The notes: generated from the letters alone by a model not told the origin. A stretch of 64,000 bases of DNA from Clostridia bacterium (GCA_017536205.1 JAFXHX010000009.1:1003-65002); one strand, 5' to 3'. Numbered from the stretch's first letter, positions 9,548 through 63,164 are shown. Made by a program: numbers and translations.

Positions 9548-9548
9548 A

Positions 9549-10379: not shown

Positions 10380-12766
10380 ATCTGAAGATATTTATCGCTT
10401 ACCCTATCCATATTTTGAACGTAGCGTTCTAACACGGCGTGAAGTAGCGTTCCCGTTTCGTTGGCTTTAACTTCACCCGTTTCCGTTTCGGAAAGTTTAA
10501 GTATTTTTTGCCCGTAACTTTTAAAAGGGCAAGAGAAAAACGTTTCTAACGTGGTTGCGCTAATTTCCCCAGAAGTTGCGCTTTTAACATAGGCTTTATC
10601 AACGTAAACGTCTTTTTCTTCGTCTTGAAAAAGTTCGTTAGTTTTATCAATTAAATCTTTATAGTTAAGCCCTTCAAGCGCTTCGTAAAACGACGCTACT
10701 TTTTTAAGTGCGTTTTTGCTAGAAAGTTTATATTCGGTGTAAGTCGACGCTATTTCACGAAGGGCAGTTTCCCTTGAAGAGTAAGCGCCAAGTTCATACT
10801 TTTTATATTCTTCAAGCCCGTTTTCAATTCCGTCTAAAATAGCCTGCCTAGTTAAAACGTTTAGGTTGAATATTTTAGTAACGGACTTTATAAGTTCCGA
10901 CTTGTAAACGGCGCTTTGCGCGCTATTTACTAGCGAGTACGATAGTTTAAGTTTATCTTCAAAAGAAGTAAGCGCCATTAAAACGCTTTCACGGTCACGG
11001 TCGTTAACCACTTTTATTTTAGGCTCTACTATAACGTTGAAACCGTCTAAAACGGCAAGGTCGCCGTCGGTTAAAAGCGAGGTGTCGCTCTGCGTAAAGG
11101 GAACGTCGCCGTTAAGCGAGAGGGCGTATAAAACCTTTGCGCCTTTAAGTTTAATATCTTTAAGTTCGCCAACGTAAACGGCGTCGTTTAAAATGGGAAT
11201 TGCACCTACTTTGGTTGCGTTAAACCCACTTAAAAGCACGTTTTTAAAATCAAGCGCAGTAATTTTACCGCCACCCAAAACGTTTTCCATCTCGCTTAAA
11301 ACGTCGTTTATTTTAGGCAAAACGTCGTCGTTAAACTCGGCGCTTACAAGTTCGTTTATAGCGCAAAGTTTTTTAGAAAGTTCTTTTACGTTGTTTTCGA
11401 TATTTAGCGTTTTAATAACGTTAGTTATTGCTTTTATATAATCGGTAACCGTTTTGCACTTTGAAAGTTCTTCGCATAGCGCTATTATTTTAGCCCTATA
11501 CCCTTCGTAAACGGAAAGATTTTCACTCTCGAAAGTAAACGGCTTTTTAACGGCGTATTTAGAAACGGCGTTTTTGTATATGTACGAAATAAACCCGTCG
11601 GCAACTTGTTTGTTTGAAATTAAAACGGCGTGCCCTATAATTTTAACGAACTCTTTAACGGGAACGCCCTTTCTTGCCATATCTAAAAACGATATTATAA
11701 ACTGCGACAAGGGGTGCTCTGCAAGCGACGACTGTTTTTCGGCGTAAAAAGGTATGTTGTAATCTTTAAAAGTTCTAGTTAAAAGCGGTAGCGTTTCTGC
11801 AAGCGAGCCAACTGCTAAAACTATATCTTTATACCTATAACCCGAAAGCCTAACTTCTGAAATTATATCTCTTGCAATAAAGTCTATTTCATCGGCGGTA
11901 TCGTATGCGCGATAAAGCGATATTTTGTCGGTAGTAAAAGGCTTAAAATCGCTTTTAAAAACGTCGTGACTAAAAAGGTATTTTTTAAGCGCTTCTTTTT
12001 CAAAATCTAAACGGGGCGAACTTATTATGCTTGCCCCACCGTCAATTTCTAAAAGCCTGTTTAGCGTTTCGCCCGTGTAAACGGAACTGTTTTCGTCGTA
12101 AGGAACAACTGCGTAAACTTCGCTAGCAACTGTGTTTAGCGCTCTAAACACGTCGAACCTTTGGCGTGTTACGGACGGAAAGCCCGATAAAATTATTACT
12201 GCACCTTTAAGATTAGGGTCGCCTATTACCGTTTGTGGCATTAGCGAAAGGTAATCGTTCCTATCGTAAAACCCACTATTTAAAACGTATTCGCAATAGG
12301 TTTTGTAAATTAAATAAACGTCGCAAAGTTTAGAGCGCAAAGCCCCGTCTTTTAAATGCGTTCCTTCTATAAGCCCGAATAAATCGCTAGGGCTTACTTT
12401 TGCGCTTTTAAGTTGCGAAATAAGTTCGTAAAGGGTAAGCGCCATATTAGGACCGAGCGCCGAGCCTTTAAAACAAGAAAGTTCGCTAGTTTTTTCTGCA
12501 AGTATTTTTCTAATAAGCATAACCGAACTTTGCTCGGAAAGTATTTTATCGCTAGGGCTAACTGAATAAACGTAACGCCTAAACGTAAAAACGTCAACGT
12601 CGAAAAAGCCACCGCCAAGCGCCTTTGCAATTTCAAGTTCGAGCGACAAGTTTATTTTGTCTTCTGAAAAAACTACGCACTTTTTTTGGGCGTCACTTAC
12701 TTCTTTAACGAGCGTTGCCGTTTTTTTAATTATAGATTCGCTTGTGGGATGGGTAAAAATCTTCAA
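10358..12766 (-). CDS. addB: AddB N-terminal fragment (helicase-like domain)
   Basis: 802 aa with AddB-like architecture. It contains the first cluster cysteine context FFSCPFKSYG and ends at a TAG 22 nt inside the next ORF. Confidence 0.8.
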   Translation of the reverse strand: MKIFTHPTSESIIKKTATLVKEVSDAQKKCVVFSEDKINLSLELEIAKALGGGFFDVDVFTFRRYVYSVSPSDKILSEQSSVMLIRKILAEKTSELSCFKGSALGPNMALTLYELISQLKSAKVSPSDLFGLIEGTHLKDGALRSKLCDVYLIYKTYCEYVLNSGFYDRNDYLSLMPQTVIGDPNLKGAVIILSGFPSVTRQRFDVFRALNTVASEVYAVVPYDENSSVYTGETLNRLLEIDGGASIISSPRLDFEKEALKKYLFSHDVFKSDFKPFTTDKISLYRAYDTADEIDFIARDIISEVRLSGYRYKDIVLAVGSLAETLPLLTRTFKDYNIPFYAEKQSSLAEHPLSQFIISFLDMARKGVPVKEFVKIIGHAVLISNKQVADGFISYIYKNAVSKYAVKKPFTFESENLSVYEGYRAKIIALCEELSKCKTVTDYIKAITNVIKTLNIENNVKELSKKLCAINELVSAEFNDDVLPKINDVLSEMENVLGGGKITALDFKNVLLSGFNATKVGAIPILNDAVYVGELKDIKLKGAKVLYALSLNGDVPFTQSDTSLLTDGDLAVLDGFNVIVEPKIKVVNDRDRESVLMALTSFEDKLKLSYSLVNSAQSAVYKSELIKSVTKIFNLNVLTRQAILDGIENGLEEYKKYELGAYSSRETALREIASTYTEYKLSSKNALKKVASFYEALEGLNYKDLIDKTNELFQDEEKDVYVDKAYVKSATSGEISATTLETFFSCPFKSYGQKILKLSETETGEVKANETGTLLHAVLERYVQNMDRVSDKYLQICSLKKL

Positions 12767-49555: not shown

Positions 49556-50401
49556 TTAAAAGTTTAAAGTAAGCAAAAAGTCCTTTGCCTTTTCAACGTC
49601 TTTTTCAGGCGTGTTGCCTACTTCACGTTCAATTGTGAAATAGCCGTTATAGCCTATATCTTTAAGCGCTTTTATATAGCCATTCCAGTCAACGTCGCCC
49701 TCGCCAAGTGGCATTTCTTTAAAGCCACTCAACGCATTAAGCGCATCAAGCCCACCAACTGCAAAGGCGTGATAAACTTCGGTTGGGTCTTGATTTTTAT
49801 CTAGCATAACGCCGTCTTTTGCGTGAGTGTGAACGATATAGTCTTTTAAAACGTAAACGCCCCTAACTGCGTCTTCCCCCGTTACCATAGTAAGATTTGC
49901 AGGGTCGTAGTTAACTCCAACGCCACCTTTTGTATCTTTTAAAAACTCAAGTAGCGTGTCAACCTTTTCAGGCCCCGTTTCTATTGCAAGTGTAACCCCA
50001 CGCTCCTTTGCGTAAAGCCCACACTCAGTAAGCGCGTTTAGCATAGTTTTATAGCGCTTATTCGTTTTATCTGCGGGAATAACGCCTATATGCGTTGTTA
50101 CAACGCTAGTTTTAAACTCAACGGCAAGGTCTATAATTTTTTTGGTTTTTTCAATGCGCTCTTTATTATCCTTTTCTATTTCAAAGCCAAACCCACCCAT
50201 ATCACCGCATAGCGCCGATACTTCAAGGTTATATTCTTTTAAAATATCTTTATATTTTTGCTTAACTTCGGGAGTTAAGTTTTCGGGTGAAAAATCGCCC
50301 ACCGTTGCGTATATTTGAACGCCGTTAAGCCCTAATTCGTGCGCCGTTTCAATGGCGATCATATGAGTTTTAAAACAGTGTGATATAACGCTTATTTTCA
50401 T
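49556..50401 (-). CDS. sugar phosphate isomerase/epimerase (xylose isomerase-like TIM barrel)
   Basis: 281 aa with the family pattern. 4-nt overlap with the upstream gene. Terminator ACAAGGGG/CCCCTTGT downstream. Confidence 0.72.
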   Translation of the reverse strand: MKISVISHCFKTHMIAIETAHELGLNGVQIYATVGDFSPENLTPEVKQKYKDILKEYNLEVSALCGDMGGFGFEIEKDNKERIEKTKKIIDLAVEFKTSVVTTHIGVIPADKTNKRYKTMLNALTECGLYAKERGVTLAIETGPEKVDTLLEFLKDTKGGVGVNYDPANLTMVTGEDAVRGVYVLKDYIVHTHAKDGVMLDKNQDPTEVYHAFAVGGLDALNALSGFKEMPLGEGDVDWNGYIKALKDIGYNGYFTIEREVGNTPEKDVEKAKDFLLTLNF

Positions 50402-51240
50402 AATATTTCTATCTCTACGTTGGGGGTTTTAGTTGCTTTTATAGCGTATCCACGAAGGCGCATTACTTCAAGCGTTTCTTCGGGGTTAAACGAAAGCGTT
50501 CCTTCTTCAAAATATCTTAAAACGTCGGCAATAAGGTTGTCAAAGAAAGGTGAGTTAACGGTAATAAACTCGGTGTTTTTACCTTCTATGGTAGCGGAAA
50601 ACGCAAACGGGAAAAACGGCGATTGAAGTATTTTAGCGTGCCTGCCGTCGGCATAATTTATATCAAGCCACCTTTGGTCGTTATAGCCGTTATATTTAAC
50701 CGAACTTGCGCCAAAACCCATCATTTTAACGGTCATTTCAATCATATGAATAATATATTCTTCATAGTTTCCACCGCTACCCATTACAAATAGAGTTTTT
50801 GCCTTGCCAGCGTACTCATCAAGTTCAGTGGCGTAACGGAGCGCAGAACTAGTAAAGAACTCAACGCCGTTCTCTTTTGCTAATTCAAATATTTTAACTG
50901 CAGTTTCGTAGTCGGGCGCAAAAGTTTTGTCAATGTAACCACCCCTTTTGCACTCGAACATCTGTTTAGCGTATTCAAGGTGTTTTTCGGGGTTAGACGG
51001 AGCAAGTAGCATAATAAAGTCTGCCTTTTTACAAAGTTCTTTAATGCTATCGCACTTTATAGCCCCGTATTTTTCGCACCACTTCTCGGTTGTAATGCCG
51101 TTTGGGTTATTAGTTTCTGCCCAAACGTATTTAACAACGAAGTCCGTTCCGTTTTTTTCGTTATAAGCCTTTATAAAGTTAGGGTACTCGTTAGCGTGCC
51201 ACTCATCTATAAAATAATCGATAAAACCTATAGTTTTCAT
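50398..51240 (-). CDS. Gfo/Idh/MocA-like protein with degenerate nucleotide-binding motif
   Basis: 280 aa with oxidoreductase-like layout but no clear GxGxxG. 4-nt overlaps on both sides. Confidence 0.4.
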   Translation of the reverse strand: MKTIGFIDYFIDEWHANEYPNFIKAYNEKNGTDFVVKYVWAETNNPNGITTEKWCEKYGAIKCDSIKELCKKADFIMLLAPSNPEKHLEYAKQMFECKRGGYIDKTFAPDYETAVKIFELAKENGVEFFTSSALRYATELDEYAGKAKTLFVMGSGGNYEEYIIHMIEMTVKMMGFGASSVKYNGYNDQRWLDINYADGRHAKILQSPFFPFAFSATIEGKNTEFITVNSPFFDNLIADVLRYFEEGTLSFNPEETLEVMRLRGYAIKATKTPNVEIEIL

Positions 51241-52292
51241 AAGGTAATCTCCTTGTTCTTTTCAGCCGATTCGTAAAGTGCGTCTAAAAGTTTCATACTT
51301 TCTAAAACGTAGTCTATATGGTTTTTATCTTTAACGCCAGACTCTATTGACTTTATAAACTCAACAAGTTCTTTTTCATACATATCGGGAATATCGTATT
51401 CGGGCTTTTCTTCGCTCAAATCGGCGCCGTTCCAGAAAGTAAACTTTCCACCGTAATCGAGCCTTGCGCCACCTTTATCGCCCAAAAAGTCGATATACAT
51501 TTCGTTTTTGTTAACGTTTTGCGCCCAAGCGCCGTTAAAGGAAATGTTTGCCTTATCAGTTCTAACGTAGCCACTAATAAAGTCGTCAACGTCGTTAACA
51601 CCCGTTTCAAAGTTAGCAGTTTCTTCAGCCCACATACTTTCGTACTTATAAGCCTTTAAGTCTTTTGCCATTTCTGAATATGCGTTTGCGCTAACGGTTT
51701 TAAGTTTCGCACCACCTAAAACGTATAAAATAAGGTCTAAAAAGTGAATGCCCCAGTCGATTAAAACGCCACCACCCGATTTAGATTTAGTGGTAAACGC
51801 ACCGCCAAGACCGGGTATATTTCTAAAACACCTAAAATTGCAGTAAACGTGATACATATTACCAAACTTGCCGTTTTCTACCCATTCTCTAAGCATTTCA
51901 ACCGATTTGTTGTGGCGATTACAAACGCCTATGTTAAGCATTTTGCCTTGCTTTTCGGCTTCTTCTGCCATTTCTTTAGAAAGGGGGTAGTTAATGGTTA
52001 TGGGCTTTTCACAAAAAACGTGTTTACCTGCCCTTAACGCATCCATAGTAACGGTGTAGTGAAGGCTATTTGGCGTGCATACGCAAACGGCGTCAACTTC
52101 AGGGTCGTTTAAGCAAACTTTATAGTCTGATACAACTTTTTTTATTGAAGGAAAGTCTTCCTTAGCCTTTTCGGCATTTGCTAAAATAACGTCGCACGCG
52201 TAAGCGATTTCAACGTTTTCAATTTGAGAAAGTGATGGAAAATATTTAGAATTACTAATTCTTCCGCAACCTATAACTGCAACTTTAAACAT
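51237..52292 (-). CDS. Gfo/Idh/MocA family oxidoreductase
   Basis: Rossmann VAVIGCGRIS, EKP motif (FCEKPI). SD AAAGGAG. Promoter TTGAAC-17-TACAAT. Confidence 0.85.
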   Translation of the reverse strand: MFKVAVIGCGRISNSKYFPSLSQIENVEIAYACDVILANAEKAKEDFPSIKKVVSDYKVCLNDPEVDAVCVCTPNSLHYTVTMDALRAGKHVFCEKPITINYPLSKEMAEEAEKQGKMLNIGVCNRHNKSVEMLREWVENGKFGNMYHVYCNFRCFRNIPGLGGAFTTKSKSGGGVLIDWGIHFLDLILYVLGGAKLKTVSANAYSEMAKDLKAYKYESMWAEETANFETGVNDVDDFISGYVRTDKANISFNGAWAQNVNKNEMYIDFLGDKGGARLDYGGKFTFWNGADLSEEKPEYDIPDMYEKELVEFIKSIESGVKDKNHIDYVLESMKLLDALYESAEKNKEITL

Positions 52293-52426
52293 AATTAACT
52301 CCTTTTTATTTTATTGTATAACTATTTAGCGTTGCGTTCAAGTAGTTCGTTTTGTATAAAACATATCATTATTTTAGATTTAAGCGTTTTTTAAGCAAAA
52401 TAAGGGCTAATTTTAATGTTTTATTA

Positions 52427-52455
52427 TTGACACGGATATTATGCTACCTTATAAT
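52427..52455 (+). promoter_or_regulatory. perfect consensus promoter TTGACA-17-TATAAT, 6 nt from the ATG at 52462
   Basis: Read directly. The track start at 52441 lies inside the spacer, so it cannot be on the transcript from this promoter. Confidence 0.65.
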
Positions 52456-52461
52456 ATAGTT

Positions 52462-53328
52462 ATGGAAATAACTGCTAATTACCACGTTAACAACTACTAT
52501 CTTAAAAGCCCGCTTGAGTTTAAAGATTTACTGCTTTACCAAATAGGCAGAAAATATTGCCGTGAAGGCGACGTTACGCCTAGGCACGTTCACGATAAAC
52601 TTTTTGAACTTACTATCGTTAAAGGTGGTAGCGCAACGCTTATAACTAACGGCGAAAGGTTTAGAATAACGGCAGGCTATATTTACCTTTCCTTTCCTTA
52701 CGAAATACACGAAATACACGCCGACCAAGGCGAAAAGTTCGATTACGACTTTTTTGCCTTTTACCCAACCAGCCCGCAACTCGTTGCCGATTTTGAAAGC
52801 ATACTGGCTAATCACAATAGCCCAAGCCTTAGAACTTTTGCCGACGATAAAGTTTCTTCACTTATTGACTTTGCTTTAAGCGAATTTCCCTTGCAAGATA
52901 GCGAAAGCGAACTTTTAAACGGGCTTTTTTATAGCGCGCTTACTTATATCGTTCGCGATTTTAACGGCATATCTCGCCCAAAGTTAAGCGTTTCGGGCGC
53001 AGAAATTATTTGCATGCAAGTTATGAATTATATAGACACGCACCTTCTAACCATATCTACCCTAACCGAAGTTGCAGAAAAGTTTAACTATAATTATAGT
53101 TACTTATCTTCGCTTTTTAAAAGCACAACGGGCAAAAACCTTGCCGATTATTTTAGAAGCAAAAAACTTCAAACGGCAAAAGTACTACTTACAACGGGCA
53201 AAAAGAGCGTTACCGAAACGGCTGTAATATTAAACTATTCTTCGCCGTTTGCATTTACCAAAGCCTTTAAAACGGCGTTTAACGTTTCGCCAAAGGAATA
53301 TGCTAAAAGCAAAAAAGCAAGGAAATAA
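52462..53328 (+). CDS. AraC family transcriptional regulator (cupin + HTH)
   Basis: N-terminal cupin-like domain and C-terminal AraC HTH pair. Start moved to the ATG at 52462 because of the promoter. Confidence 0.82.
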   Translation: MEITANYHVNNYYLKSPLEFKDLLLYQIGRKYCREGDVTPRHVHDKLFELTIVKGGSATLITNGERFRITAGYIYLSFPYEIHEIHADQGEKFDYDFFAFYPTSPQLVADFESILANHNSPSLRTFADDKVSSLIDFALSEFPLQDSESELLNGLFYSALTYIVRDFNGISRPKLSVSGAEIICMQVMNYIDTHLLTISTLTEVAEKFNYNYSYLSSLFKSTTGKNLADYFRSKKLQTAKVLLTTGKKSVTETAVILNYSSPFAFTKAFKTAFNVSPKEYAKSKKARK

Positions 53329-53339
53329 TCCTTGCTTTT

Positions 53340-54230
53340 TTATTTAGTTTCTATTTTTAATAATTTTTTTGCATTTTCTCTTGCAATTTTATCGTAAACT
53401 TTTTCGCTTATATAATTTTCATCTAGCATTTTGTTCATAAAATCGGTTTGACCGATATAATCGTCGTGATAACAGATATCAGAGCCGTACATAATTCTAT
53501 CTTGAAACTCGTTTAAGAACTTTTTAGTGTAGTTAAGGTTTCTTTTCATAGCGCCAAGCCCACTTCCTGCCGACAAATCAACGTATAAGTTTTTATACTC
53601 GCGCATTAAACTAAACACTGCGCCCTCACCGTCTATATCGTAGGTGGGCCAGCCGTATCTATCTTCAGGTTTGCGTAAAGTGCCAAACTCTGCCCAAAAG
53701 CCGGGACCGTGACCTATAAATATAAGATTAGGGAACTTTTCTAAACACTTTTTAAGTTTTATTAGCCCCGGCTCGTCGCTAACGCCGTAAGTTCTATCAG
53801 GGTCTGAATACATATCGAATAGGAGCGGGAGTTCCATTTTTTCGCTTGCCCTATAAAGGTTTAAAAGTTTAGGGTCGTCAAACTCCATTTTAGGCAATAC
53901 TTCACCCACGCCAACGCAACCTTGATTTTTAAAAAACTCAAGCAACAGTTCAAGTTCAGAATCTTTCGAGTTGCCTATTGCACGGGGGTCTACGTTGCAA
54001 AAGGGAACGTATCTGCCACCCGATTCTTTAGCCATATCTATAACTTCACCAACCGATTGTGGTTGATACTCTTCGGCGTTGACAAGGCACATAAGCGCAC
54101 CACCTGTAATTCCAAACTTTTCGTGAGCACGGTAAAGTTCTTCTTTATTAGGAAACATTATTCTTCTTGCTTCGTTAATAAACGGATATTTATAATAGTG
54201 CGTGTGTATATCAAAAAAATTATTTCTCAT
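53340..54230 (-). CDS. amidohydrolase family protein (Amidohydro_2-like metal-dependent hydrolase), paralogue 3
   Basis: DIHTH metal motif. Shares FCNVDPRA and GVGE blocks with 58595-59509 and 61131-62042. Confidence 0.72.
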   Translation of the reverse strand: MRNNFFDIHTHYYKYPFINEARRIMFPNKEELYRAHEKFGITGGALMCLVNAEEYQPQSVGEVIDMAKESGGRYVPFCNVDPRAIGNSKDSELELLLEFFKNQGCVGVGEVLPKMEFDDPKLLNLYRASEKMELPLLFDMYSDPDRTYGVSDEPGLIKLKKCLEKFPNLIFIGHGPGFWAEFGTLRKPEDRYGWPTYDIDGEGAVFSLMREYKNLYVDLSAGSGLGAMKRNLNYTKKFLNEFQDRIMYGSDICYHDDYIGQTDFMNKMLDENYISEKVYDKIARENAKKLLKIETK

Positions 54231-55957: not shown

Positions 55958-56413
55958 ATGAAAGTTAGTAAAATAGAAAGTTTTAAAATAGACCATAACA
56001 AACTTGAAGTTGGCATTTACGTTTCTAGAATAGACGGCGATATTACAACTTACGACCTTAGGACCAGAAAGCCAAACTTCGGCGATTATTTAAACACTGT
56101 TACTATGCACTCTGTTGAACATATGCTTGCAACCTATTTAAGAAGTTCTAAAATAGGTAAAGACGTAATTTATTTTGGGCCTATGGGTTGCAGAACGGGT
56201 TTTTATTTACTTGTTAGAAACGCAAGTAACGAAGAAGTTTTAAACGAAGTTAAACTTGCCCTTAAAAAAACGATAGAGCATAACGGCAAAATGTTTGGAA
56301 ATACAAAAATTGAGTGCGGAAACTACAAGTGTCTTTCTCTAAAACTTGCAAAAATAGAGTGCAAGCGATACCTTGATGCGCTTAATTCAAAACAACACGA
56401 CTTTAAATATTAA
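55958..56413 (+). CDS. luxS: S-ribosylhomocysteine lyase
   Basis: HSVEHMLA metal motif, GPMGCRTGFY, 151 aa. Confidence 0.9.
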   Translation: MKVSKIESFKIDHNKLEVGIYVSRIDGDITTYDLRTRKPNFGDYLNTVTMHSVEHMLATYLRSSKIGKDVIYFGPMGCRTGFYLLVRNASNEEVLNEVKLALKKTIEHNGKMFGNTKIECGNYKCLSLKLAKIECKRYLDALNSKQHDFKY

Positions 56414-56443
56414 AAAAGAACCGACTGCTGTCGGTTCTTTTTT
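56413..56443. terminator. bidirectional intrinsic terminator
   Basis: GAACCGAC-tgct-GTCGGTTC with A/T runs. Confidence 0.8.
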
Positions 56444-57230
56444 AATAAATCATAATGTCTAAATAATCAACTATTTTTTCTTTTACAACTTGCACCGTAT
56501 ATTCATTTAAAAACTTAGCGTTTTTAACGTTTCGGCAGTCGTACTTGCAATCTTCTTCGCTTACGTATTCAATAGTAATAGTTAGCGGAAGTTCCATTTT
56601 TATGGGTTTTATTTGGCCACGTTTTTTATAACCTTTTGAAACTGCGTTATAAATGCTATTAAGCGCTTCTTCTTCGCTAAAACAAGTTGCGCTATCACGG
56701 CTATTTGCAATTTTAACTACTGCTGTTTCAAGGCCGTTATAGAACGATTTTGCTTCTTCGCAAGCGGCTTTATCGCCACTTGCTGCAACGCAAGGCACGT
56801 TATACACACCTGCATACACGCCCATTTGCGCTGTTTCACCCACCTTAATTCCGTTATAGTACCACCCTTTGATGGCTTCCCATAATTGAGTATGGTCGAA
56901 AAACGCATTTTCGGTTTTTGCCATTGCGTGCGTGCCTATCATAACGAAAGCATCAATCTCGTTCATATAGGGAGTAAGTTCCCAAGTAGGCAGTTGCACG
57001 GCACGAGAATCAAGCATACCTTTTATAAAGTTTTTGCCTGAAGCGTGCCCATCAACAACGTAAACCTTATCGGCACCACTATCAAATAGTGCACTAACTG
57101 CAACGTTTGTTTCTTTCATTAAACGCTCGGTTGCAAGTTTATATCCGTTAGACGTTTCGTCTATAACCATTTGCATATTAGAAACGTTAGAAACGCCTTC
57201 TAAATCGGTAATAATTAATGCGCTAGCCAT
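56442..57230 (-). CDS. M55 family metallopeptidase (D-aminopeptidase DppA-like)
   Basis: N-terminal ITDLEGVSNV and overall Peptidase_M55-like pattern. 262 aa. Confidence 0.6.
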   Translation of the reverse strand: MASALIITDLEGVSNVSNMQMVIDETSNGYKLATERLMKETNVAVSALFDSGADKVYVVDGHASGKNFIKGMLDSRAVQLPTWELTPYMNEIDAFVMIGTHAMAKTENAFFDHTQLWEAIKGWYYNGIKVGETAQMGVYAGVYNVPCVAASGDKAACEEAKSFYNGLETAVVKIANSRDSATCFSEEEALNSIYNAVSKGYKKRGQIKPIKMELPLTITIEYVSEEDCKYDCRNVKNAKFLNEYTVQVVKEKIVDYLDIMIY

Positions 57231-57232
57231 TA

Positions 57233-58582
57233 TTATTTACTCTCTTGTTGGTTAGCAGCGTTTTCAGTACCGTGCCATCTACCACCTTGTGCCTTATCAA
57301 CGTCACCTTCAAGAAGTTGTTCGTAGTTTTCGGCAACTTTTCTAAATGCTTTTGAATAAGCGTCGATAATTTCTTTATTAAACTTTTTAAACCAAGGAGC
57401 AGATACGCAATATTTCTTTTCAGATGGGTTAACGGCTTCGTCGTCTTTTCTAACGTCACGGTCGTTGAACGCAATACGGGTTGGCTTACCATTGTTGAAT
57501 AAGTCGAATTCTTTAAAGAACTTGTGGTTGTGTAAGCAGAAGTTTGCGCCTTCCCAAGCACCGAAAGTGCCACTAAACTCTGCAGTTAACGCTTCGCAGA
57601 AACGCTTTGCAGATAAACCACCAAACTTTTCAGGATAGTAAGCAAAGTGTGGAAGGTAATAACCACCCATGTGCGAGCCTTCTTCACGGTTAGGACGAAG
57701 TGGCTTTAAGCCTTCGATATCGGCAAGTGAATCGTAGAAATAGTCCATTGCCTTTCTAATTTCAGCAGTACGTTCGTCAAAGTATTTGAGTTGACCTCTT
57801 GCAAGAACTGAAGATACTTGGTTTGCCCTACCTTTGCAACCACCTAAACCGATGTGGTAGTAACCTTTAATTTCTTCGGCTTCAATAATGTTTTCGGGGC
57901 TATTTTTACCATAGTGACCAAATGCTAACGCACGTTCGTAAAGTCTTCTATCGTCGGTAACAACCATACCAAGTTCGCCTGCAGCAAATACTTTCATACT
58001 CATCATACTCATAGCGGCGATGTGACCAAACGTACCAACTTTTTTGCCTTTGTATAATGAACCGTGTGCGTGCGAGCAGTCTTCAATAACGTAAAGGTTG
58101 TGCTTGTTAGCAATTTCCATAATTCTATCCATATCGCAAGGATAGCCAAGGTAGTGAACTACAACGATTGCCTTAGTTCTTGGAGTAATGCACCTTTCAA
58201 GGTCGTCTGGGTCCATAGAAAGCATATCATTAATGTTGCAGAATACTGCCGATGCGCCAAAGTTAGCCGCTTGCGAAACGCTACCCCAGTAAGTTTTGGT
58301 GGGGCAAATAATTTCGTCGCCAATACCAAGACCGATGGCGAACATTGCTGCAGTTATCGACATAGTACCGTTGGTGTATGCGCAAGCGTACTTTCTGCCA
58401 ATCCATTCAGCGAATTCACTTTCGAACTTTTCAGTTATATCTTCGTAAGAGAACTTGTTAGCCTTAACGACTTCAACAACGTTATCTATATCTTCTTGGG
58501 TGATAATGGGCCACTTAAACATTTCCTCGGGCGCTTTTTCAGTAACAACAGGCGTACCGCCTAAAAGTGCTAATTTTTCCAT
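57233..58582 (-). CDS. DegT/DnrJ/EryC1/StrS family PLP aminotransferase, copy 1
   Basis: LALLGG..P N-terminus, PLP-lysine context SMMSMKVFAAGELG, 449 aa. Confidence 0.82.
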   Translation of the reverse strand: MEKLALLGGTPVVTEKAPEEMFKWPIITQEDIDNVVEVVKANKFSYEDITEKFESEFAEWIGRKYACAYTNGTMSITAAMFAIGLGIGDEIICPTKTYWGSVSQAANFGASAVFCNINDMLSMDPDDLERCITPRTKAIVVVHYLGYPCDMDRIMEIANKHNLYVIEDCSHAHGSLYKGKKVGTFGHIAAMSMMSMKVFAAGELGMVVTDDRRLYERALAFGHYGKNSPENIIEAEEIKGYYHIGLGGCKGRANQVSSVLARGQLKYFDERTAEIRKAMDYFYDSLADIEGLKPLRPNREEGSHMGGYYLPHFAYYPEKFGGLSAKRFCEALTAEFSGTFGAWEGANFCLHNHKFFKEFDLFNNGKPTRIAFNDRDVRKDDEAVNPSEKKYCVSAPWFKKFNKEIIDAYSKAFRKVAENYEQLLEGDVDKAQGGRWHGTENAANQQESK

Positions 58583-58594
58583 ATTTCTCTCCTA

Positions 58595-59509
58595 TTATTC
58601 TTCAATATTTAATAACTTCATCGCGTTGCCACGAACGAATTTGTAGTAATTTTCTTCGCTTATGTACTTGTCTTCTACCATACGGGTAAGGAACTCGTCA
58701 TACTCGAAGGGGTGAACGTTTGTTGCAGCGCAAACGTCTAAACCGAAAAGTACTCTATCAGAGAACTCTTCAATAAACCTTGCAGCGTGGTCTTTATCAC
58801 GCATTAACGCGCCCATGCCACTACCTGCAGACATATCGCAGTAAAGGTTGGGAAGTTCACGAAGCATTTCGGTTACTCTGCCAACGCCCTTTATGGGGGT
58901 AAGTGGCCAACCAAGCCTTATCTCGTCGTCACAGTCGCCAGATATTTCTGCCCAGAAAGTTTGCGAGTGACCAAGTATTTTAAGGTCGGGGTGCTTCTTC
59001 ATCATTTTTTCTAAACGGGGAAGACCTAAATCATCTCTAATTCCGTAGTAACCATATTTATCTTTAATGGTTGCAACGTGAATAGTTACGGGCATATCGC
59101 ACTTAGCACAATGATAAAAAAGGTTATCCATTAAGGGGTCGTCAATAGGCATATGAGCCGTAAGTTCACCAAGACCTTTTGCGCCTAAGTTTTTATAAAA
59201 CATAAGTTGTTCAGACAAATTAGCGTCTGGCCTGTTGCCGTGCGCCCTTGGGTCGACGTTACAAAACCACATAAACCTATCGGGGTGCTTGTCTGAAAGC
59301 AATTTCGCTTCTTGGTTAGTAAGCTGATAAGAGTGAACTTCGGGCGAAACGAGTGGTAAAAGTAAACCTTTTTCAATATTGAGCTTGTCGTATATTGCTA
59401 AAAGTTCATCATCTTGAATCATAGGTGCTAACGAGTTAACCCCGTCTGGACACAAGTGTTTGTACGGTGTAACGTGTGCGTGTATATCAATCTTTTTAAC
59501 TTGCTTCAT
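58595..59509 (-). CDS. amidohydrolase family protein, paralogue 1
   Basis: DIHAH metal motif. 304 aa. SD AAAGGAG. Confidence 0.75.
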   Translation of the reverse strand: MKQVKKIDIHAHVTPYKHLCPDGVNSLAPMIQDDELLAIYDKLNIEKGLLLPLVSPEVHSYQLTNQEAKLLSDKHPDRFMWFCNVDPRAHGNRPDANLSEQLMFYKNLGAKGLGELTAHMPIDDPLMDNLFYHCAKCDMPVTIHVATIKDKYGYYGIRDDLGLPRLEKMMKKHPDLKILGHSQTFWAEISGDCDDEIRLGWPLTPIKGVGRVTEMLRELPNLYCDMSAGSGMGALMRDKDHAARFIEEFSDRVLFGLDVCAATNVHPFEYDEFLTRMVEDKYISEENYYKFVRGNAMKLLNIEE

Positions 59510-59534
59510 AGTTTTCTCCTTTTTACCTACAAAT

Positions 59535-59598
59535 ATTATAGCATTACTAGAAAATATATCAATGGAATATTTTGCTACCTTGTAGCACTATATTGCTA
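59535..59598 (-). promoter_or_regulatory. promoter TTGATA-16-TATAAT plus two 14-nt direct repeats TAGCAA(T/A)ATA.. spaced 21 bp (candidate AraC-type operator)
   Basis: Sense strand reads TAGCAATATAGTGCTAcaagGTAGCAAAATATTCCATTGATA... 36 of 40 nt are identical to 62093-62132, at the same distance from the start codon. Confidence 0.6.
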
Positions 59599-59705
59599 TT
59601 TATTACTATTATATATAGTAATAAGGTTATTATTGTTTTAAAAATAGGGGTAAAACTCCACTTTTACATTAAACTTTATATAGCTTCACTTTTTTTAATA
59701 AAATT

Positions 59706-59736
59706 AAAAAGAACCGATAAAAATCGGTTCTTTTTT
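59706..59736 (-). terminator. intrinsic terminator between the two cassette copies
   Basis: GAACCGAT-aaaa-ATCGGTTC with T-runs. Confidence 0.8.
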
Positions 59737-59755
59737 CGTTTTAGTTAAACGCTAT

Positions 59756-61111
59756 TTATTTTTTCTTTTTTTGTTGGTTAGCAGCGTTTTCAGTACCGTG
59801 CCATCTACCACCTTGTTCTTTATCTATGTCACCTTCAAGAAGTTGTTCGTAGTTTTCAGCAACCTTTCTATAAACTGCAACGTAAGCATCAATACGTTCT
59901 TTATCAAACTTTTTAAACCAAGGAACTGAAATACAATATTTAGTGTTTGATTTATTGATTGATTCGTCAAGCTCACGAACGTCACGGTCAGCAAACTCTA
60001 TACGGGTTGGCTTACCGGTGTTGTATAAGTCGAACGTTTTGAAGAATTCGTGATTATGTAAGCAGAAGTTTGCGCCTTCCCAAGAGAAGAATGCACCGTT
60101 AAACTCTGCTCTTAAAGCTTCACAGAAACGCTTTGCAGATAAACCCTTGAATTCATCGGGATAATAAGCAAATTGTGGGCAATAGTAACCACCCATATGT
60201 GAACCTTCTGCTTCGTTGCAACGAAGGGGCTTTAAGCCTTTAATATCTGCAAGTGAATCGAAGAAGTAGTTCATTGCCTTTCTAATTTCAGCAGAACGTT
60301 CGTCGAAGTGTTTAAGTTGACCTCTAGCGAGCGCTGAAGAAACTTGGTTTGCTCTACCTTTGCAACCACCTAAACCGATGTGATAGTAACCTTTAATTTC
60401 ATCTGCAACTAGAATGTTTTGTTCGTTGTTAAGGTCGTAGTGACCAAACGCTAATGCACGTTCGTAAAGTCTTCTATCGTCGGTAACAACCATACCAAGT
60501 TCGCCTGCAGCAAATACTTTCATACTCATCATACTCATAGCGGCGATGTGACCGAAAGTACCAACTTTTTTGCCTTTGTATAATGAACCGTGTGCGTGCG
60601 AGCAGTCTTCAATAACGTAAAGGTTGTGCTTGTTAGCAATTTCCATAATTCTATCCATATCGCAAGGATAGCCGTGATAGTGAACTACTACGATTGCTTT
60701 AGTTCTTGGAGAGATTAAACGCTCTAAGTCGTCCGGGTCCATAGAAAGCATATCGTTGATGTTGCAGAATACTGCCGAAGCACCAAAGTTAATTGCTTGC
60801 GAAACGCTACCCCAGTAAGTTTTGGTGGGGCAAATAATTTCGTCGCCAATACCAAGACCGATAGCGAACATTGCTGCAGTTATCGACATAGTACCGTTAG
60901 TGTATGCGCAAGCGTACTTTCTGCCAATCCACTCAGCAAATTCATCTTCGAACTTTTTGGTAATGTCCTTACCCGAAAACTTGTTGTTTTCAACGATATC
61001 CATAACTGCATCTTTATCTTCTTGCGTTATGATGGGCCATCTAAAGATTTCTTTATCGGTAGCTAATTCTTGAAAGCTAGGACTGCCACCTAAGAGTGCT
61101 AATTTTTCCAT
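59756..61111 (-). CDS. DegT/DnrJ/EryC1/StrS family PLP aminotransferase, copy 2
   Basis: Paralogue of 57233-58582 with the same motifs. 451 aa. Confidence 0.82.
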   Translation of the reverse strand: MEKLALLGGSPSFQELATDKEIFRWPIITQEDKDAVMDIVENNKFSGKDITKKFEDEFAEWIGRKYACAYTNGTMSITAAMFAIGLGIGDEIICPTKTYWGSVSQAINFGASAVFCNINDMLSMDPDDLERLISPRTKAIVVVHYHGYPCDMDRIMEIANKHNLYVIEDCSHAHGSLYKGKKVGTFGHIAAMSMMSMKVFAAGELGMVVTDDRRLYERALAFGHYDLNNEQNILVADEIKGYYHIGLGGCKGRANQVSSALARGQLKHFDERSAEIRKAMNYFFDSLADIKGLKPLRCNEAEGSHMGGYYCPQFAYYPDEFKGLSAKRFCEALRAEFNGAFFSWEGANFCLHNHEFFKTFDLYNTGKPTRIEFADRDVRELDESINKSNTKYCISVPWFKKFDKERIDAYVAVYRKVAENYEQLLEGDIDKEQGGRWHGTENAANQQKKKK

Positions 61112-61130
61112 ATTTTTTATCTCCTATTTA

Positions 61131-62042
61131 TTATTCAATATTTAATAGTTTAATCGCGTTGCCACGAACAAACTTATAATAATTTTCTTCGCTTATATAC
61201 TTGTCTTCTACCATACGGGTAAGGAACTCTTCATACCTGTATTGATGAGTGTTAGAAGGTGCGCAAACGTCTAAACCGAAAAGCACTCTGTCAGAGAACT
61301 CTTCAATAAACCTTGCAGCGTATTCTTTATCGCGCATTAACGCGTTAAGACCACTGCCTGCAGAAAGGTCGCAGTAAAGGTTGGGAAGTTCACGAAGCAT
61401 TTTTACGATTTTACCGTCGCCTTCAACTTTGCTGTTCGGGTAAATAAACCTAGTTTCTTCGGTAACGTCGTCACCAAGTTCAGACCAAAACATTTGTGAG
61501 TGACCAAGTATTTTAAGGTCGGGGTGCTTATTCATCATTTTTTCTAAGCGTGGAAGATGCAAATCGTCTTTAATGCCGTAGTAACCGTATTGACTGCTCA
61601 TAGGCGCAATGTGAATAGTTACGGGCATATCGCACTTAGCACAATGATAAAAGAAGTTATCCATTAAAGGGTCGTCTGCAGGAATATTAGCGGTTACTTC
61701 GCCAACGCCTTTAGCGCCTAAACCCTTAAAGAACATAAGTTGCTCAGATAGTTCTGCCTTTGGGTTGTGGCCGTAAGCCCTTGGGTCTACGTTACAAAAC
61801 CAAACGAACCTATCAGGGTGCTTATCTGAAAGGAGTTTCGCCTCTGCACTCGTCGTTACGTACGAGTGATATTCAGGGGAAACAAGTGGTAATAAAACGC
61901 CTTTTTCAATATTGAGTTCGTCGTAAATTGCAATAAGTTCGTTATCGTCAACCATAGTGACTTTTGAAAGCATTGCGTTAGGACATAAGTGCTTATAAGG
62001 TGTAATGTGTGCGTGAATGTCTATTTTCTTAACTAGTTTCAT
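61131..62042 (-). CDS. amidohydrolase family protein, paralogue 2
   Basis: DIHAH motif. I prefer the ATG at 62042 (MKLVKKIDIHAH) with an AAGGAG SD. Confidence 0.75.
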   Translation of the reverse strand: MKLVKKIDIHAHITPYKHLCPNAMLSKVTMVDDNELIAIYDELNIEKGVLLPLVSPEYHSYVTTSAEAKLLSDKHPDRFVWFCNVDPRAYGHNPKAELSEQLMFFKGLGAKGVGEVTANIPADDPLMDNFFYHCAKCDMPVTIHIAPMSSQYGYYGIKDDLHLPRLEKMMNKHPDLKILGHSQMFWSELGDDVTEETRFIYPNSKVEGDGKIVKMLRELPNLYCDLSAGSGLNALMRDKEYAARFIEEFSDRVLFGLDVCAPSNTHQYRYEEFLTRMVEDKYISEENYYKFVRGNAIKLLNIE

Positions 62043-62067
62043 AACCCACTCCTTGTTGTCTATAATA

Positions 62068-62132
62068 ATTATAGACATTACTTAAATATATGTCAATGGA
62101 ATATTTTGCTACGTTTTAGCACTATATTGCTA
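62068..62132 (-). promoter_or_regulatory. promoter TTGACA-17-TATAAT plus duplicated direct-repeat operator
   Basis: Sense strand reads TAGCAATATAGTGCTAaaacGTAGCAAAATATTCCATTGACA-17-TATAAT. Confidence 0.6.
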
Positions 62133-62209
62133 CTAGCACCCTTTTAAACGGTTATTTTAATGCCATTTAGTCTTAAAATGCTCCATTTTGCTATTTTTGT
62201 TAAATTAAA

Positions 62210-63070
62210 TTATTTAGAGTTTCTGCTTTTTTTAGGCGATATGCCTTTATGCTTTTTATAGCAACGGCAAAAATAACTTTTATCTTCAAACCCACACTTT
62301 TCGGCGATTGTAGATATTGTTTCGTTGCTATCTTTAAGCATTATGTCCGCAATTTTAAGCCTGTAACTAATTAGGTATTCAACGGGACTAACAGCCATAA
62401 CTTTGTTAAACACACGGCAAAAGTGATACTTGCTGATATTACAAATGTCGGCAAGTTCTTCAATGGTAATTTTTTTGTTAAAGTCGGCGTGTATTTTAGA
62501 AAGCGCAGGCCTTACGATTTCGGCTTGCTTTAAGTTAAGCCCTTCTTTTCTTGATTCGTTGCCGTTAACGTAATCGCGAAGAAGAATTACGAAAAACTCT
62601 AGCATCAACGCGCGAACTACCAAGCGATAATGCTCTGATTTGCGTTGCATTTCATCAAAGGCACGAGATATAAGCGTTTGAAGCCTTTCGTCGTTTTTAA
62701 TTAGGTTGTTAAACTTTTTACCGTCTTCAATTAGTATTTTTCTTAAATCAATCGAATTGCCTATTAAACTGTTAAAATCAACGGCAACTACTATTGAATA
62801 ATATCTTATAGGAGTGTTGTTTATATTAACGTTAGCGTGTATTTCATAGGGGTTAATAACGATTATATCGCCTTTATCGGCGTTATAAATATCGTTGCCT
62901 ATCATAATTTTAGAGCCCGTTTCGTAATAGTATTTAATTTCTATTTCTTCGTGGAACGATTTGGGAAAATTGCTTACTAGTTGGTTTAAAACGACTATTT
63001 TAAAATCGTCGCTTGAAAACTCTATACGCTGACGTTCTGCAACTTGATTTATAGCATCGTTTTTCTTCAT
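62210..63070 (-). CDS. AraC family transcriptional regulator
   Basis: Cupin-like N-terminal domain and AraC HTH C-terminal domain. ATG at 63070 (MKKNDAINQ); the track start is a GTG. Promoter TTGCAT-17-TATAAT at 63101-63129. Confidence 0.82.
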   Translation of the reverse strand: MKKNDAINQVAERQRIEFSSDDFKIVVLNQLVSNFPKSFHEEIEIKYYYETGSKIMIGNDIYNADKGDIIVINPYEIHANVNINNTPIRYYSIVVAVDFNSLIGNSIDLRKILIEDGKKFNNLIKNDERLQTLISRAFDEMQRKSEHYRLVVRALMLEFFVILLRDYVNGNESRKEGLNLKQAEIVRPALSKIHADFNKKITIEELADICNISKYHFCRVFNKVMAVSPVEYLISYRLKIADIMLKDSNETISTIAEKCGFEDKSYFCRCYKKHKGISPKKSRNSK

Positions 63071-63164
63071 TAAAGCCACCCTTGTAATTTTATTACTATT
63101 ATTATAACAAAACTAACGTGTATATGCAATAAAAAAAGCAATTTTGTGCTATTTTTTAACAAAA

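What the first reader, a model, noticed from the sequence alone, without database searches (positions are those of the whole stretch)
57233..62132. Tandem duplication of a promoter-amidohydrolase-aminotransferase cassette with mosaic identity
Two consecutive units each consist of an operator/promoter, an Amidohydro_2-like hydrolase and a 450-aa DegT-type PLP enzyme. Unit 2 spans 62132 down to 59756 and unit 1 spans 59598 down to 57233. The aminotransferase pair is roughly four-fifths identical in protein by eye, but identity is very uneven. Positions 57930-58147 and 60456-60673 (218 nt) differ at only 2 positions in my alignment. High identity continues for about 490 nt, then falls in the flanks and in the hydrolase genes. 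That mosaic suggests an older duplication followed by recent gene conversion, or strong constraint on the PLP core. The unit 2 cassette has its own terminator (59706-59736), so the two units are separate transcription units. The first is extended by an M55 peptidase gene.
Basis: seen in the sequence. Interest (0 to 1): 0.6.

Follow-up and report, generated by a model that had tools for sequence, protein, structure and literature searches.

The report
Tandem operon duplicate with gene conversion
An uncultured gut Clostridia bacterium carries two head-to-tail copies of a two-gene sugar-amine enzyme operon, and parts of one gene have been copied between them recently; this is real and well supported, but it is a well-known kind of bacterial genome evolution.

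Summary
Two head-to-tail units lie on the minus strand, 2526-2534 nt apart. Each has an operator and promoter, an Amidohydro_2 hydrolase and a 450-aa DegT-type PLP enzyme. The PLP genes are 83.8% identical in DNA and 82.7% in protein; the hydrolases are 74% identical.

The mosaic is gene conversion, not constraint on the PLP core. In two blocks, synonymous divergence between the copies is 0.17, against 0.98 in the rest of the gene. Orthologues show no synonymous drop in those blocks (0.86 against 0.91). Segment trees switch accordingly. Outside the blocks AT2 falls outside a clade of AT1 plus five orthologues (99-100% support). Inside them AT1 and AT2 are sisters.

Syntenic relatives have one unit, orthologous to unit 1. 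Unit 2 is therefore an older or foreign copy lying between araC and unit 1.

An independent k141 contig matches the window exactly over 10.2 kb. Three other assemblies show "converted" or chimeric states, but one is a k=55 graph cycle, so these are most likely assembler artefacts.

The substrate is unknown; an AraC-induced amino-sugar or aminocyclitol pathway is probable. The scan had not noted this conversion on other DNA. Interest is modest: a clean new example of a known process.

The parts
62210..63079 (-). AraC-family regulator gene immediately upstream of unit 2; presumed activator of both units
   Evidence: Pfam HTH_AraC, HTH_18 and AraC_binding. An AraC gene sits directly upstream of the AH-AT unit in L034, L031, G014, G025 and G009.
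62068..62132 (-). Unit 2 operator and promoter: direct repeat TAGCAATAT / TAGCAAAAT spaced 21 bp, abutting the -35; TTGACA-17-TATAAT
   Evidence: The repeat is conserved in both units and upstream of the AH gene in five related loci.
61131..62042 (-). AH2, Amidohydro_2 TIM-barrel metal hydrolase (303 aa from MKLVKK; the ORF can extend to 62078)
   Evidence: Pfam PF04909, E = 7e-16. 74% identical to AH1. All family-invariant residues are kept.
59756..61111 (-). AT2, 451-aa DegT/BtrR-like PLP enzyme
   Evidence: Pfam PF01041, E = 2e-69. Falls outside the clade of AT1 plus its orthologues in unconverted segments.
60456..60673 (-). Conversion block B in AT2, partner of 57930-58147. Encodes the PLP-binding Asp (IEDCSHAHG) and the Schiff-base Lys (SMMSMK)
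   Evidence: 2 differences in 218 nt. dS 0.14. The Lys and Asp align with those of PDB chains 2c7t and 7l7x.
60795..60931 (-). Conversion block A in AT2, partner of 58269-58405
   Evidence: 2 differences in 137 nt. dS 0.20 over gene nt 181-360.
60674..60794 (-). Unconverted stretch between the blocks, partner of 58148-58268. This is the segment that other assemblies collapse onto one copy or the other
   Evidence: 22 differences in 121 nt. L027 and L029 differ from the window only at these sites and at the two-site pair 60554/60557 (L029 at the AT1 partner sites).
59771..59857 (-). Short high-identity block at the 3' end of AT2, partner of 57245-57331
   Evidence: 95.4% identical. The segment tree puts AT1 and AT2 as sisters, 84% support.
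59706..59735 (-). Intrinsic terminator after AT2, inside the 157-nt spacer that has no copy in the other unit (59599-59755)
   Evidence: 13-bp stem followed by a T run. -18.7 kcal/mol, z = -5.3.
59535..59598 (-). Unit 1 operator and promoter: the same direct repeat; TTGATA-16-TATAAT with an extended TG
58595..59509 (-). AH1, Amidohydro_2 hydrolase (304 aa), orthologue of the single AH gene in relatives
   Evidence: Pfam PF04909. 83.6% identical to L031 and 74.3% to L034. AF2 model pLDDT 92; nearest folds are Amidohydro_2 decarboxylases and lactonases.
57233..58582 (-). AT1, 449-aa DegT/BtrR-like PLP enzyme, orthologue of the single AT gene in relatives
   Evidence: 93-95% aa identity to G027, G001, G034, L034 and L031. 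Clade support 95-100%.
56442..57230 (-). M55 (DppA-like) peptidase gene, starting 2 nt after the AT1 stop codon; third gene of unit 1
   Evidence: Pfam PF04951, E = 1e-49. The same AT-M55 linkage occurs in L034, G027, G001 and G034.

Best explanation
The locus holds two paralogous, AraC-controlled operons in tandem. The order on the coding strand is araC, then operator/promoter-AH2-AT2-terminator, then operator/promoter-AH1-AT1-M55.

Unit 1 is the resident copy. It is orthologous to the single unit found at the same place in related species. Unit 2 is a more divergent copy lying between araC and unit 1. It is either an old duplicate kept only in this lineage or a homologous cassette brought in from an unsampled relative.

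After this lineage split from its sampled sister species, homologous recombination between the two PLP-enzyme genes copied sequence from one to the other without reciprocal exchange. That is gene conversion. It left at least two blocks that are nearly identical even at silent sites: gene nt about 178-314 and 436-653 of AT1. A shorter block lies at the 3' end. Older and fainter homogenisation extends through the middle of AT and the 3' two-thirds of AH.

The converted blocks encode the PLP-binding core, the part most conserved in the family. That part offers the longest identical stretches for recombination to start in, and conversion there changes almost no amino acids. The N-terminal segment, residues 225-240, the C-terminal domain and the hydrolases stay diverged. 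This fits two enzymes with related but different substrates.

Shown here: the duplication, the mosaic, the silent-site and tree incongruence, and the single-unit state in relatives. Inferred: RecA-type recombination as the mechanism, co-regulation of both units by the one AraC protein, and a catabolic role on an amino sugar or aminocyclitol.
For: - Duplication and coordinates.
- dS AT1-AT2 is 0.17 in the blocks against 0.98 elsewhere (Fisher P = 3e-10). The orthologue control shows dS 0.86 against 0.91 (P = 0.9).
- Permutation tests: the longest identical run of 116 nt was never reached in 20,000 shuffles. Using synonymous codons only, the best-scoring segment (65 codons with 2 differences) gave P = 0.003.
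- DNA identity between AT1 and AT2 in the blocks is 96-100%, above AT1 against its orthologues (86-93%). Outside the blocks the order is reversed.
- Quartet site patterns: 18:6 in favour of AT1+AT2 inside the blocks, against 18:50 outside (Fisher P = 6e-5).
- Segment trees: for gene nt 676-1250 and 1-174, AT2 falls outside AT1 plus five orthologues (100% and 99% UFBoot). In the blocks and the 3' end, AT1 and AT2 are sisters (80% and 84%).
- Single-unit syntenic loci: L034 reads 2-Hacid_dh...araC-AH-AT-M55-luxS-HAD, and L031 has the same core. Their genes are closer to unit 1 than to unit 2 (AT 94-95% against 81-83%; AH 74-84% against 62-71%).
- Assembly check: contig k141_593320 of ERZ28018841 is identical to the window over 10,245 nt. 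The longest shared run, 116 nt, is below 141.
- The catalytic Lys and Asp are present and lie in block B. AH metal-ligand-type residues are invariant in both copies.
- The operator repeat is conserved across both units and five related loci.
Against: - Copy number and the exact sequence of the blocks therefore rest on two concordant short-read assemblies, which may come from related samples.
- The direction of conversion is unresolved. AT1-orthologue dS in the blocks fits AT1 as donor only weakly, because everything is similar in this conserved core.
- dS estimates near or above 1 are saturated and rough.
- AH and AT disagree on the age of the duplication. AH1 and AH2 are closer at silent sites than AH1 is to its orthologues (dS 0.87 against 1.7-2.3). 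'Old duplication' is thus firm only for the AT flanks.
- Co-regulation and the two transcription units are motif-based only.
Confidence: 0.85

Rival explanations
1. Strong purifying selection on the PLP-binding core alone keeps the two copies alike there, with no DNA exchange between them.
For: The blocks coincide with the most conserved part of the family. Even the 71%-identical orthologues of G014 and G009 are 88-90% identical in DNA there, and dN is low in every comparison.
Against: Selection on the protein does not protect silent sites. Orthologues have dS 0.5-0.9 in the same blocks, while AT1-AT2 has 0.14-0.20, with runs of 36 and 27 degenerate codons carrying no synonymous change. The trees change topology inside the blocks.
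Confidence: 0.04
2. The mosaic, or the tandem copy itself, is an assembly artefact: paralogous or strain variants collapsed or mis-threaded by a de Bruijn assembler.
For: - Such artefacts do occur at this locus. L027 and L029 differ from the window only at paralogue-distinguishing sites flanked by shared runs of 68 nt or more.
- L030 is an AT1/AT2 chimera with an exact 55-nt terminal overlap, which marks a k=55 graph cycle.
Against: - The window state is reproduced exactly in a contig named in k141 style, a naming I take as MEGAHIT's from my own knowledge. All shared runs (116 nt at most) are shorter than 141.
- Collapse needs shared k-mers on both sides of a variant. Flank-level divergence (about 75%) could not have been collapsed into 98-116-nt perfect runs.
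- All four full-length assemblies examined (window, L026, L027, L029) carry two units with distinct flanks.
Confidence: 0.06
3. A recent in-place duplication followed by fast, asymmetric divergence of unit 2. The similar blocks are simply the parts that have not yet diverged, so no conversion is needed.
For: - AH1-AH2 dS (0.87) is lower than AH1-orthologue dS (1.7-2.3).
- The AH 5'-half tree puts AH1 and AH2 together (77%), with a long AH2 branch.
- dN/dS between the paralogues is about 0.18, against 0.07 for orthologues.
Against: - In the AT flanks, silent-site divergence between the paralogues (dS 0.96; third-position identity 54-68%) exceeds that between AT1 and its orthologues (0.69-0.79; 62-82%).
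- AT2 lies outside the orthologue clade with 99-100% support. Faster protein evolution cannot produce that.
- A neutral clock cannot give dS of about 0.1 and about 1 side by side within one gene.
Confidence: 0.05

Closest known systems
Concerted evolution and gene conversion between bacterial paralogues (for example duplicated tuf genes and rRNA operons; survey in PMC6053082, Commun Biol 2018)
   Same: Paralogues in one genome are more alike than orthologues over defined segments. Tree topology switches between segments. Silent sites are homogenised.
   Different: Here conversion is partial. It is limited to blocks of about 140 and 220 nt in one gene of a two-gene unit, and it lies in an accessory catabolic-type operon rather than a core translation gene. 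The copies have otherwise diverged to 83% identity. The named examples (tuf, rRNA) are recalled from general knowledge; only the title and abstract of PMC6053082 were seen.
BtrR / StsC-type L-glutamine:(2-deoxy-)scyllo-inosose aminotransferases (PDB 2c7t, 5w71) and the DegT-family sugar aminotransferase 7l7x
   Same: Fold-type I DegT family. The Schiff-base Lys and the PLP Asp align. The alignment to BtrR runs to residue 340, including the C-terminal 'kfgglsa..fce' segment.
   Different: AT1 and AT2 score far below every NCBIfam equivalog cut-off (best is PseC, 171 bits against 423). They have about 110 further C-terminal residues that were not matched. They sit in AraC-controlled, catabolic-looking operons with an Amidohydro_2 hydrolase, not in antibiotic or glycan biosynthesis clusters.
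Amidohydro_2 (ACMSD-like) TIM-barrel metal enzymes: gamma-resorcylate decarboxylase 2dvt, LigW, LigI/LigY/LigJ, sugar lactonase 4dlf
   Same: Pfam PF04909 match. HxH at strand 1, with further invariant His and Asp residues. The AF2 model (pLDDT 92) matches these folds at Foldseek probability 1.0.
   Different: Only 14-18% sequence identity and TM about 0.6. There is no sequence-level PDB hit and no NCBIfam model. The reaction type (hydrolase, lactonase or decarboxylase) cannot be assigned.
Class II AraC/XylS activator sites (araBAD, rhaBAD type)
   Same: Two direct repeats about 21 bp apart, the proximal one abutting the -35, downstream of an araC-family gene.
   Different: Binding was not tested. 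The consensus (A/G)GCAA(T/A)AT is specific to this gene family in gut Clostridia.

Membership tests
Gene conversion / concerted evolution between paralogues | Paralogues are more similar to each other than to orthologues over a bounded segment, and the reverse holds outside it | tested here: met
   DNA identity 96-100% (AT1-AT2) against 86-93% (AT1-orthologues) in the blocks; 69-84% against 84-94% outside. Segment trees agree.
Gene conversion / concerted evolution between paralogues | Homogenisation reaches synonymous sites and is not explained by a local low mutation rate or by constraint | tested here: met
   dS 0.17 against 0.98 for the paralogues; 0.86 against 0.91 for AT1-G027. Synonymous-only permutation P = 0.003.
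Gene conversion / concerted evolution between paralogues | Non-reciprocal transfer with an identified donor and recipient | tested here: inconclusive
   AT1-orthologue dS in the blocks equals that in the flanks, which fits AT1 as donor. The core is so conserved that the alternative differs little. No unconverted AT2 orthologue was found.
Gene conversion / concerted evolution between paralogues | Both copies physically present in one genome (not an assembly artefact) | tested here: inconclusive
   Two concordant assemblies, one of them a k141 contig, support it.
DegT/DnrJ/EryC1/StrS PLP aminotransferase family (PF01041) | Pfam match above the gathering score | tested here: met
   239 and 235 bits against a cut-off of 19.8.
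DegT/DnrJ/EryC1/StrS PLP aminotransferase family (PF01041) | Schiff-base lysine and PLP-pyridine aspartate conserved | tested here: met
   SMMSMK aligns with the 'QQGK' Lys of 2c7t and the 'QDK' Lys of 7l7x. IEDCSHAHG aligns with IEDCAQ(S/A)HG. Both copies are identical in this stretch.
DegT/DnrJ/EryC1/StrS PLP aminotransferase family (PF01041) | Assignment to a characterised equivalog (PseC, WecE, ArnB, DesI and others) | tested here: not met
   All NCBIfam hits are far below their cut-offs.
Amidohydro_2 (PF04909) | Pfam match above the gathering score, and a TIM-barrel fold with N-terminal HxH | tested here: met
   44 and 59 bits against a cut-off of 26.4. H10 and H12 are invariant. The AF2 model and Foldseek agree.
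AraC-type activated operon | Regulator binds the repeats and activates transcription in response to a ligand | not testable with these tools
   Only the conserved repeat geometry and gene adjacency were seen.

The most novel reading that the evidence does not exclude
The alternative states seen in other assemblies of the same strain are real rather than artefacts. In L027, AT2 carries AT1 sequence across 60554-60794. In L029, AT1 carries AT2 sequence across 58148-58268. L030 is an AT1/AT2 hybrid. If real, conversion and unequal exchange between the two units would be going on now, in both directions, within a gut population. They would be shuffling a 121-nt segment that changes four residues (A106I, C130L, T132S, L145H) next to the active site. 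A related possibility: both enzymes are co-induced from identical operators and have an identical dimer core, so they might form heterodimers, and conversion would keep that interface matched.
Probability: 0.15. Interest if true: 0.5.

Novelty: new member of a known kind. Interest (0 to 1): 0.3.

Why it matters
This is a clean, quantified case of partial gene conversion between diverged tandem operons in an uncultured gut Clostridia genome. It has single-unit syntenic relatives for comparison.

It shows how the conserved cofactor core of an enzyme can be homogenised while the likely specificity-determining parts, and the partner hydrolase, keep diverging.

It also gives a practical warning. 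At such loci, short-k metagenome assemblies produce false 'converted' alleles, chimeric proteins and circular-looking contigs, and these then enter protein databases as distinct sequences.

The AH-AT pair is widespread in gut Clostridia and has no characterised member. The operon's substrate is therefore the more valuable open question.

Tried and rejected
- I first read the 24-site differences in L027 and L029 as strain polymorphism for conversion tracts. I rejected that as the main reading for four reasons:
  - L029 would need two adjacent events in opposite directions on a background with no other SNP in 13.7 kb.
  - Only variants flanked by shared runs of 68 nt or more are affected.
  - All the odd states come from one study.
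  - L030 from that study has a 55-nt terminal overlap with period 2526, which marks a graph cycle.
- A JGI metagenome scan with a 50-mer from the shared run found nothing.
- No orthologue of AT2 or AH2 closer than unit 1 was found among the 37 other genomes of the genus or the 5.8-billion-protein set. The donor question and the choice between an old duplicate and an imported cassette stay open.
- Composition does not mark unit 2 as foreign (GC3 36-40% against 39-42%).
- A literature search for a characterised AH + DegT + AraC pathway returned nothing relevant.
- No PDB sequence hit for AH1. The fold search gave only the superfamily.
Full report
**1. What is there**

On the minus strand of 56.4-63.1 kb the genes run in this order:
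- araC-family regulator, 62210-63079
- AH2, 61131-62042
- AT2, 59756-61111
- AH1, 58595-59509
- AT1, 57233-58582
- M55 peptidase, 56442-57230

AH1 and AH2 match Pfam Amidohydro_2. AT1 and AT2 match DegT_DnrJ_EryC1 with E about 1e-70.

The repeat finder and a MAFFT alignment show two head-to-tail units. Spacing is 2526 nt in the AT genes and 2533-2534 nt in the AH genes and promoters. Homology starts at the operator (59598 / 62132) and stops at the AT stop codons.

A 157-nt spacer (59599-59755) has no counterpart in the other unit. It holds a strong hairpin followed by a T run at 59706-59735 (-18.7 kcal/mol, z = -5.3).

Each unit has a near-consensus promoter, 12 of 12 and 11 of 12 matches. Each promoter is preceded by a direct repeat, TAGCAATAT ... 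TAGCAAAAT, spaced 21 bp and abutting the -35. This repeat is conserved upstream of the AH gene in five related loci, which supports an AraC-type activator site. M55 starts 2 nt after the AT1 stop codon.

**2. The mosaic**

AT1 and AT2 are 83.8% identical in DNA and 82.7% in protein. AH1 and AH2 are 74% identical in protein.

Identity along the AT genes is very uneven:

| AT1 coordinates | Length | Differences | Identity |
|---|---|---|---|
| 57930-58147 | 218 nt | 2 | 99.1% |
| 58148-58268 | 121 nt | 22 | 81.8% |
| 58269-58405 | 137 nt | 2 | 98.5% |
| 57245-57331 | 87 nt | 4 | 95.4% |

The 5' 175 nt and gene nt 850-1250 fall to 60-80%. The longest perfect runs are 116, 98 and 68 nt. With differences placed at random, a run of 116 nt was never reached in 20,000 permutations.

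**3. Conversion or constraint**

Synonymous sites decide this.
- By the Nei-Gojobori method, AT1-AT2 dS is 0.17 in the two blocks and 0.98 in the rest of the gene (13 of 88 against 91 of 167 synonymous differences; Fisher P = 3e-10).
- Using only codons that encode the same degenerate amino acid, the best-scoring segment has 65 codons with 2 changes (permutation P = 0.003).
- The control is the orthologues. AT1 against the 94%-identical gene of sister species G027 has dS 0.86 in the blocks and 0.91 outside (P = 0.9). G027-G001 has 0.49 against 0.45.

Silent sites in the PLP core therefore evolve freely between species. Only the two copies within this genome are alike there.

DNA identity shows the same pattern. 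In the blocks AT1-AT2 is 96-100% identical, above AT1-orthologue (86-93%). Outside the blocks the order is reversed.

Quartet site patterns switch from 18:50 outside the blocks (AT1+AT2 against AT1+orthologue) to 18:6 inside them (Fisher P = 6e-5).

IQ-TREE segment trees agree:
- For gene nt 676-1250 and 1-174, AT2 lies outside a clade of AT1 plus L034, L031, G027, G001 and G034 (100% and 99% support).
- In the blocks and in the last 100 nt, AT1 and AT2 are sisters (80% and 84%).

This is the signature of gene conversion after the split from the sampled sister species.

**4. History**

The genome is 1.39 Mb in 14 contigs and about 94% complete. It has only these two copies of the AT gene.

Among the 37 other genomes of the genus, no genome has a closer relative of AT2 than AT1 itself. 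Three arrangements were seen in relatives:
- L034 (GCA_054275735.1) is syntenic and has a single unit: 2-Hacid_dh ... araC-AH-AT-M55-luxS-HAD-araC-Gfo/Idh/MocA. Its AT is 94% identical to AT1 and 81% to AT2. Its AH is 74% identical to AH1 and 62% to AH2. L031 has the same araC-AH-AT core (AH 84% against 71%; AT 95% against 83%).
- G027, G001 and G034 keep only an AT1-like gene plus M55. These sit next to glycerol-3-phosphate-dehydrogenase-like and FAD-oxidoreductase genes.
- G014, G025 and G009 have araC-AH-AT. In G014 and G025, which were checked, three Gfo/Idh/MocA genes follow.

Unit 1 is therefore the resident orthologue. Unit 2 is an older or imported paralogue inserted between araC and unit 1. 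Composition does not distinguish these two options.

The two genes give different ages for the duplication. AH1 and AH2 are closer at silent sites (dS 0.87; third-position identity 64%) than AH1 is to its orthologues (dS 1.7-2.3; 48-55%). This is most marked in the 3' two-thirds of AH. I read this as older conversion events layered under the recent ones. The estimates are saturated, so this step is an inference.

The direction of the recent events is unresolved, with a weak lean towards AT1 as donor.

**5. Is the assembly right**

Other assemblies stand in for them.
- Contig k141_593320 of ERZ28018841 is identical to the window over 10,245 nt. I take that naming style to mean MEGAHIT with k = 141, from my own knowledge. 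Every shared run (116 nt at most) is shorter than 141, so such a graph has no ambiguity between the copies.
- Three contigs from one other study differ in a telling way.
  - L027 equals the window except at 24 sites, all in AT2 at 60554-60794, and each carries the AT1 base.
  - L029 equals the window over 13,768 nt except at 22 sites in AT1 (58148-58268), each carrying the AT2 base, plus 60554 and 60557 in AT2, each carrying the AT1 base.
  - L030 is a 2581-nt contig carrying AH1 and a hybrid of the AT1 5' part and the AT2 3' part. The switch lies inside the 68-nt shared run. The first and last 55 nt of the contig are identical, so it is a cycle of period 2526 in a k=55 graph.

Only variants bracketed by shared runs of 68 nt or more are affected. 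L029 would also need two opposite events on an otherwise SNP-free background. I therefore judge these states to be assembler artefacts, with about 75-85% confidence, rather than ongoing conversion. The proteins derived from them (P0001, P0129, P0122) sit in public clusters as if they were distinct alleles.

**6. What the genes do**

*AT1 and AT2*
- Both keep the Schiff-base Lys (SMMSMK) and the PLP Asp (IEDCSHAHG). These residues lie in block B and align with those of BtrR (2c7t) and 7l7x.
- The alignment to BtrR-type inosose aminotransferases runs to residue 340.
- All NCBIfam equivalogs are far below their cut-offs.

*AH1*
- It has no PDB hit by sequence.
- A confident AF2 model (pLDDT 92) matches Amidohydro_2 decarboxylases, lactonases and hydratases at 14-18% identity.
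- The HxH motif and the other family-invariant residues are kept in AH1, AH2 and the third paralogue at 53340-54230.

*Genomic context*
- The AH-AT pair is adjacent in several species of the genus, usually behind an araC gene. In G014 and G025 it sits next to Gfo/Idh/MocA dehydrogenases.
- Thousands of AT homologues and more than a thousand AH homologues occur in uncultured Clostridia.

My inference is an AraC-induced pathway. In it a dehydrogenase-made keto-sugar or inosose and its amine are interconverted by the AT, and the AH performs a hydrolytic or related step. An earlier scan note on another gut Clostridia locus reached a similar reading (e1-3014751); I treat that as a lead, not as support. 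The substrate is unknown, and a literature search gave nothing.

Differences between AT1 and AT2 cluster in residues 1-59, 225-240 and 285-420, and in the hydrolases. That fits two related substrates, but it is untested.

**7. Verdict**

The constraint alternative is rejected.

Gene conversion between bacterial paralogues is well known (for example PMC6053082, title and abstract seen). This is a new, well-documented example, not a new phenomenon.

The by-products may be more useful than the finding itself. One is the demonstration that short-k assemblies create false alleles at this locus. The other is an uncharacterised, widespread AH-AT enzyme pair.

Noticed in passing
L030 (ERZ28653940 scaffold_74328, 2581 nt); also L027 and L029: Public metagenome contigs from one study carry collapsed or chimeric versions of this locus. 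One contig has a 55-nt terminal overlap, which marks a graph cycle of period 2526. The resulting proteins (P0001, P0129, P0122) are stored in protein clusters as separate sequences.
   Followed up: yes
window 58595-59509 against 57233-58582, compared with L034 and L031: Two adjacent genes of one operon show very different divergence from their orthologues. AH dS is 1.7-2.3 while AT dS is 0.7-0.8. Either AT has a much lower silent-site rate, or it has been exchanged between species more recently than AH.
   Followed up: partly
window 56442-57230: The M55 peptidase is only 47-57% identical to the syntenic M55 genes of G027 and L034, although the adjoining AT1 is 94% identical. This suggests replacement or very fast change of this gene.
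   Followed up: no
window 56402-56443 and 59695-59736: The terminator after unit 2 and the terminator between luxS and M55 are 74% alike (AAAAAGAACCGA...TCGGTTCTTTTTT). They may be remnants of one unit end or members of a small repeat family.
   Followed up: no
window 62185-62193: A third TAGCAAAAT copy lies between the araC stop codon and the unit 2 operator. The motif is enriched in the window (10 copies against 3.1 expected). It could be an extra half-site.
   Followed up: no
window 53340-54230 and 49556-53328: A third Amidohydro_2 paralogue (about 36% identical to AH1) and a second araC gene lie nearby. That araC gene sits with Gfo/Idh/MocA, xylose-isomerase-like TIM-barrel, PHP, PALP and MFS genes. 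In G014 and G025 the Gfo/Idh/MocA genes follow the AT gene directly, so these clusters probably belong to one pathway.
   Followed up: partly
L021 (G027:C11) 8104-12480: In three sister species the AT1-like gene has no hydrolase partner. It sits instead with a glycerol-3-phosphate-dehydrogenase-like gene, a 605-aa FAD oxidoreductase and a DeoR regulator. The same enzyme is thus wired into a different operon.
   Followed up: no
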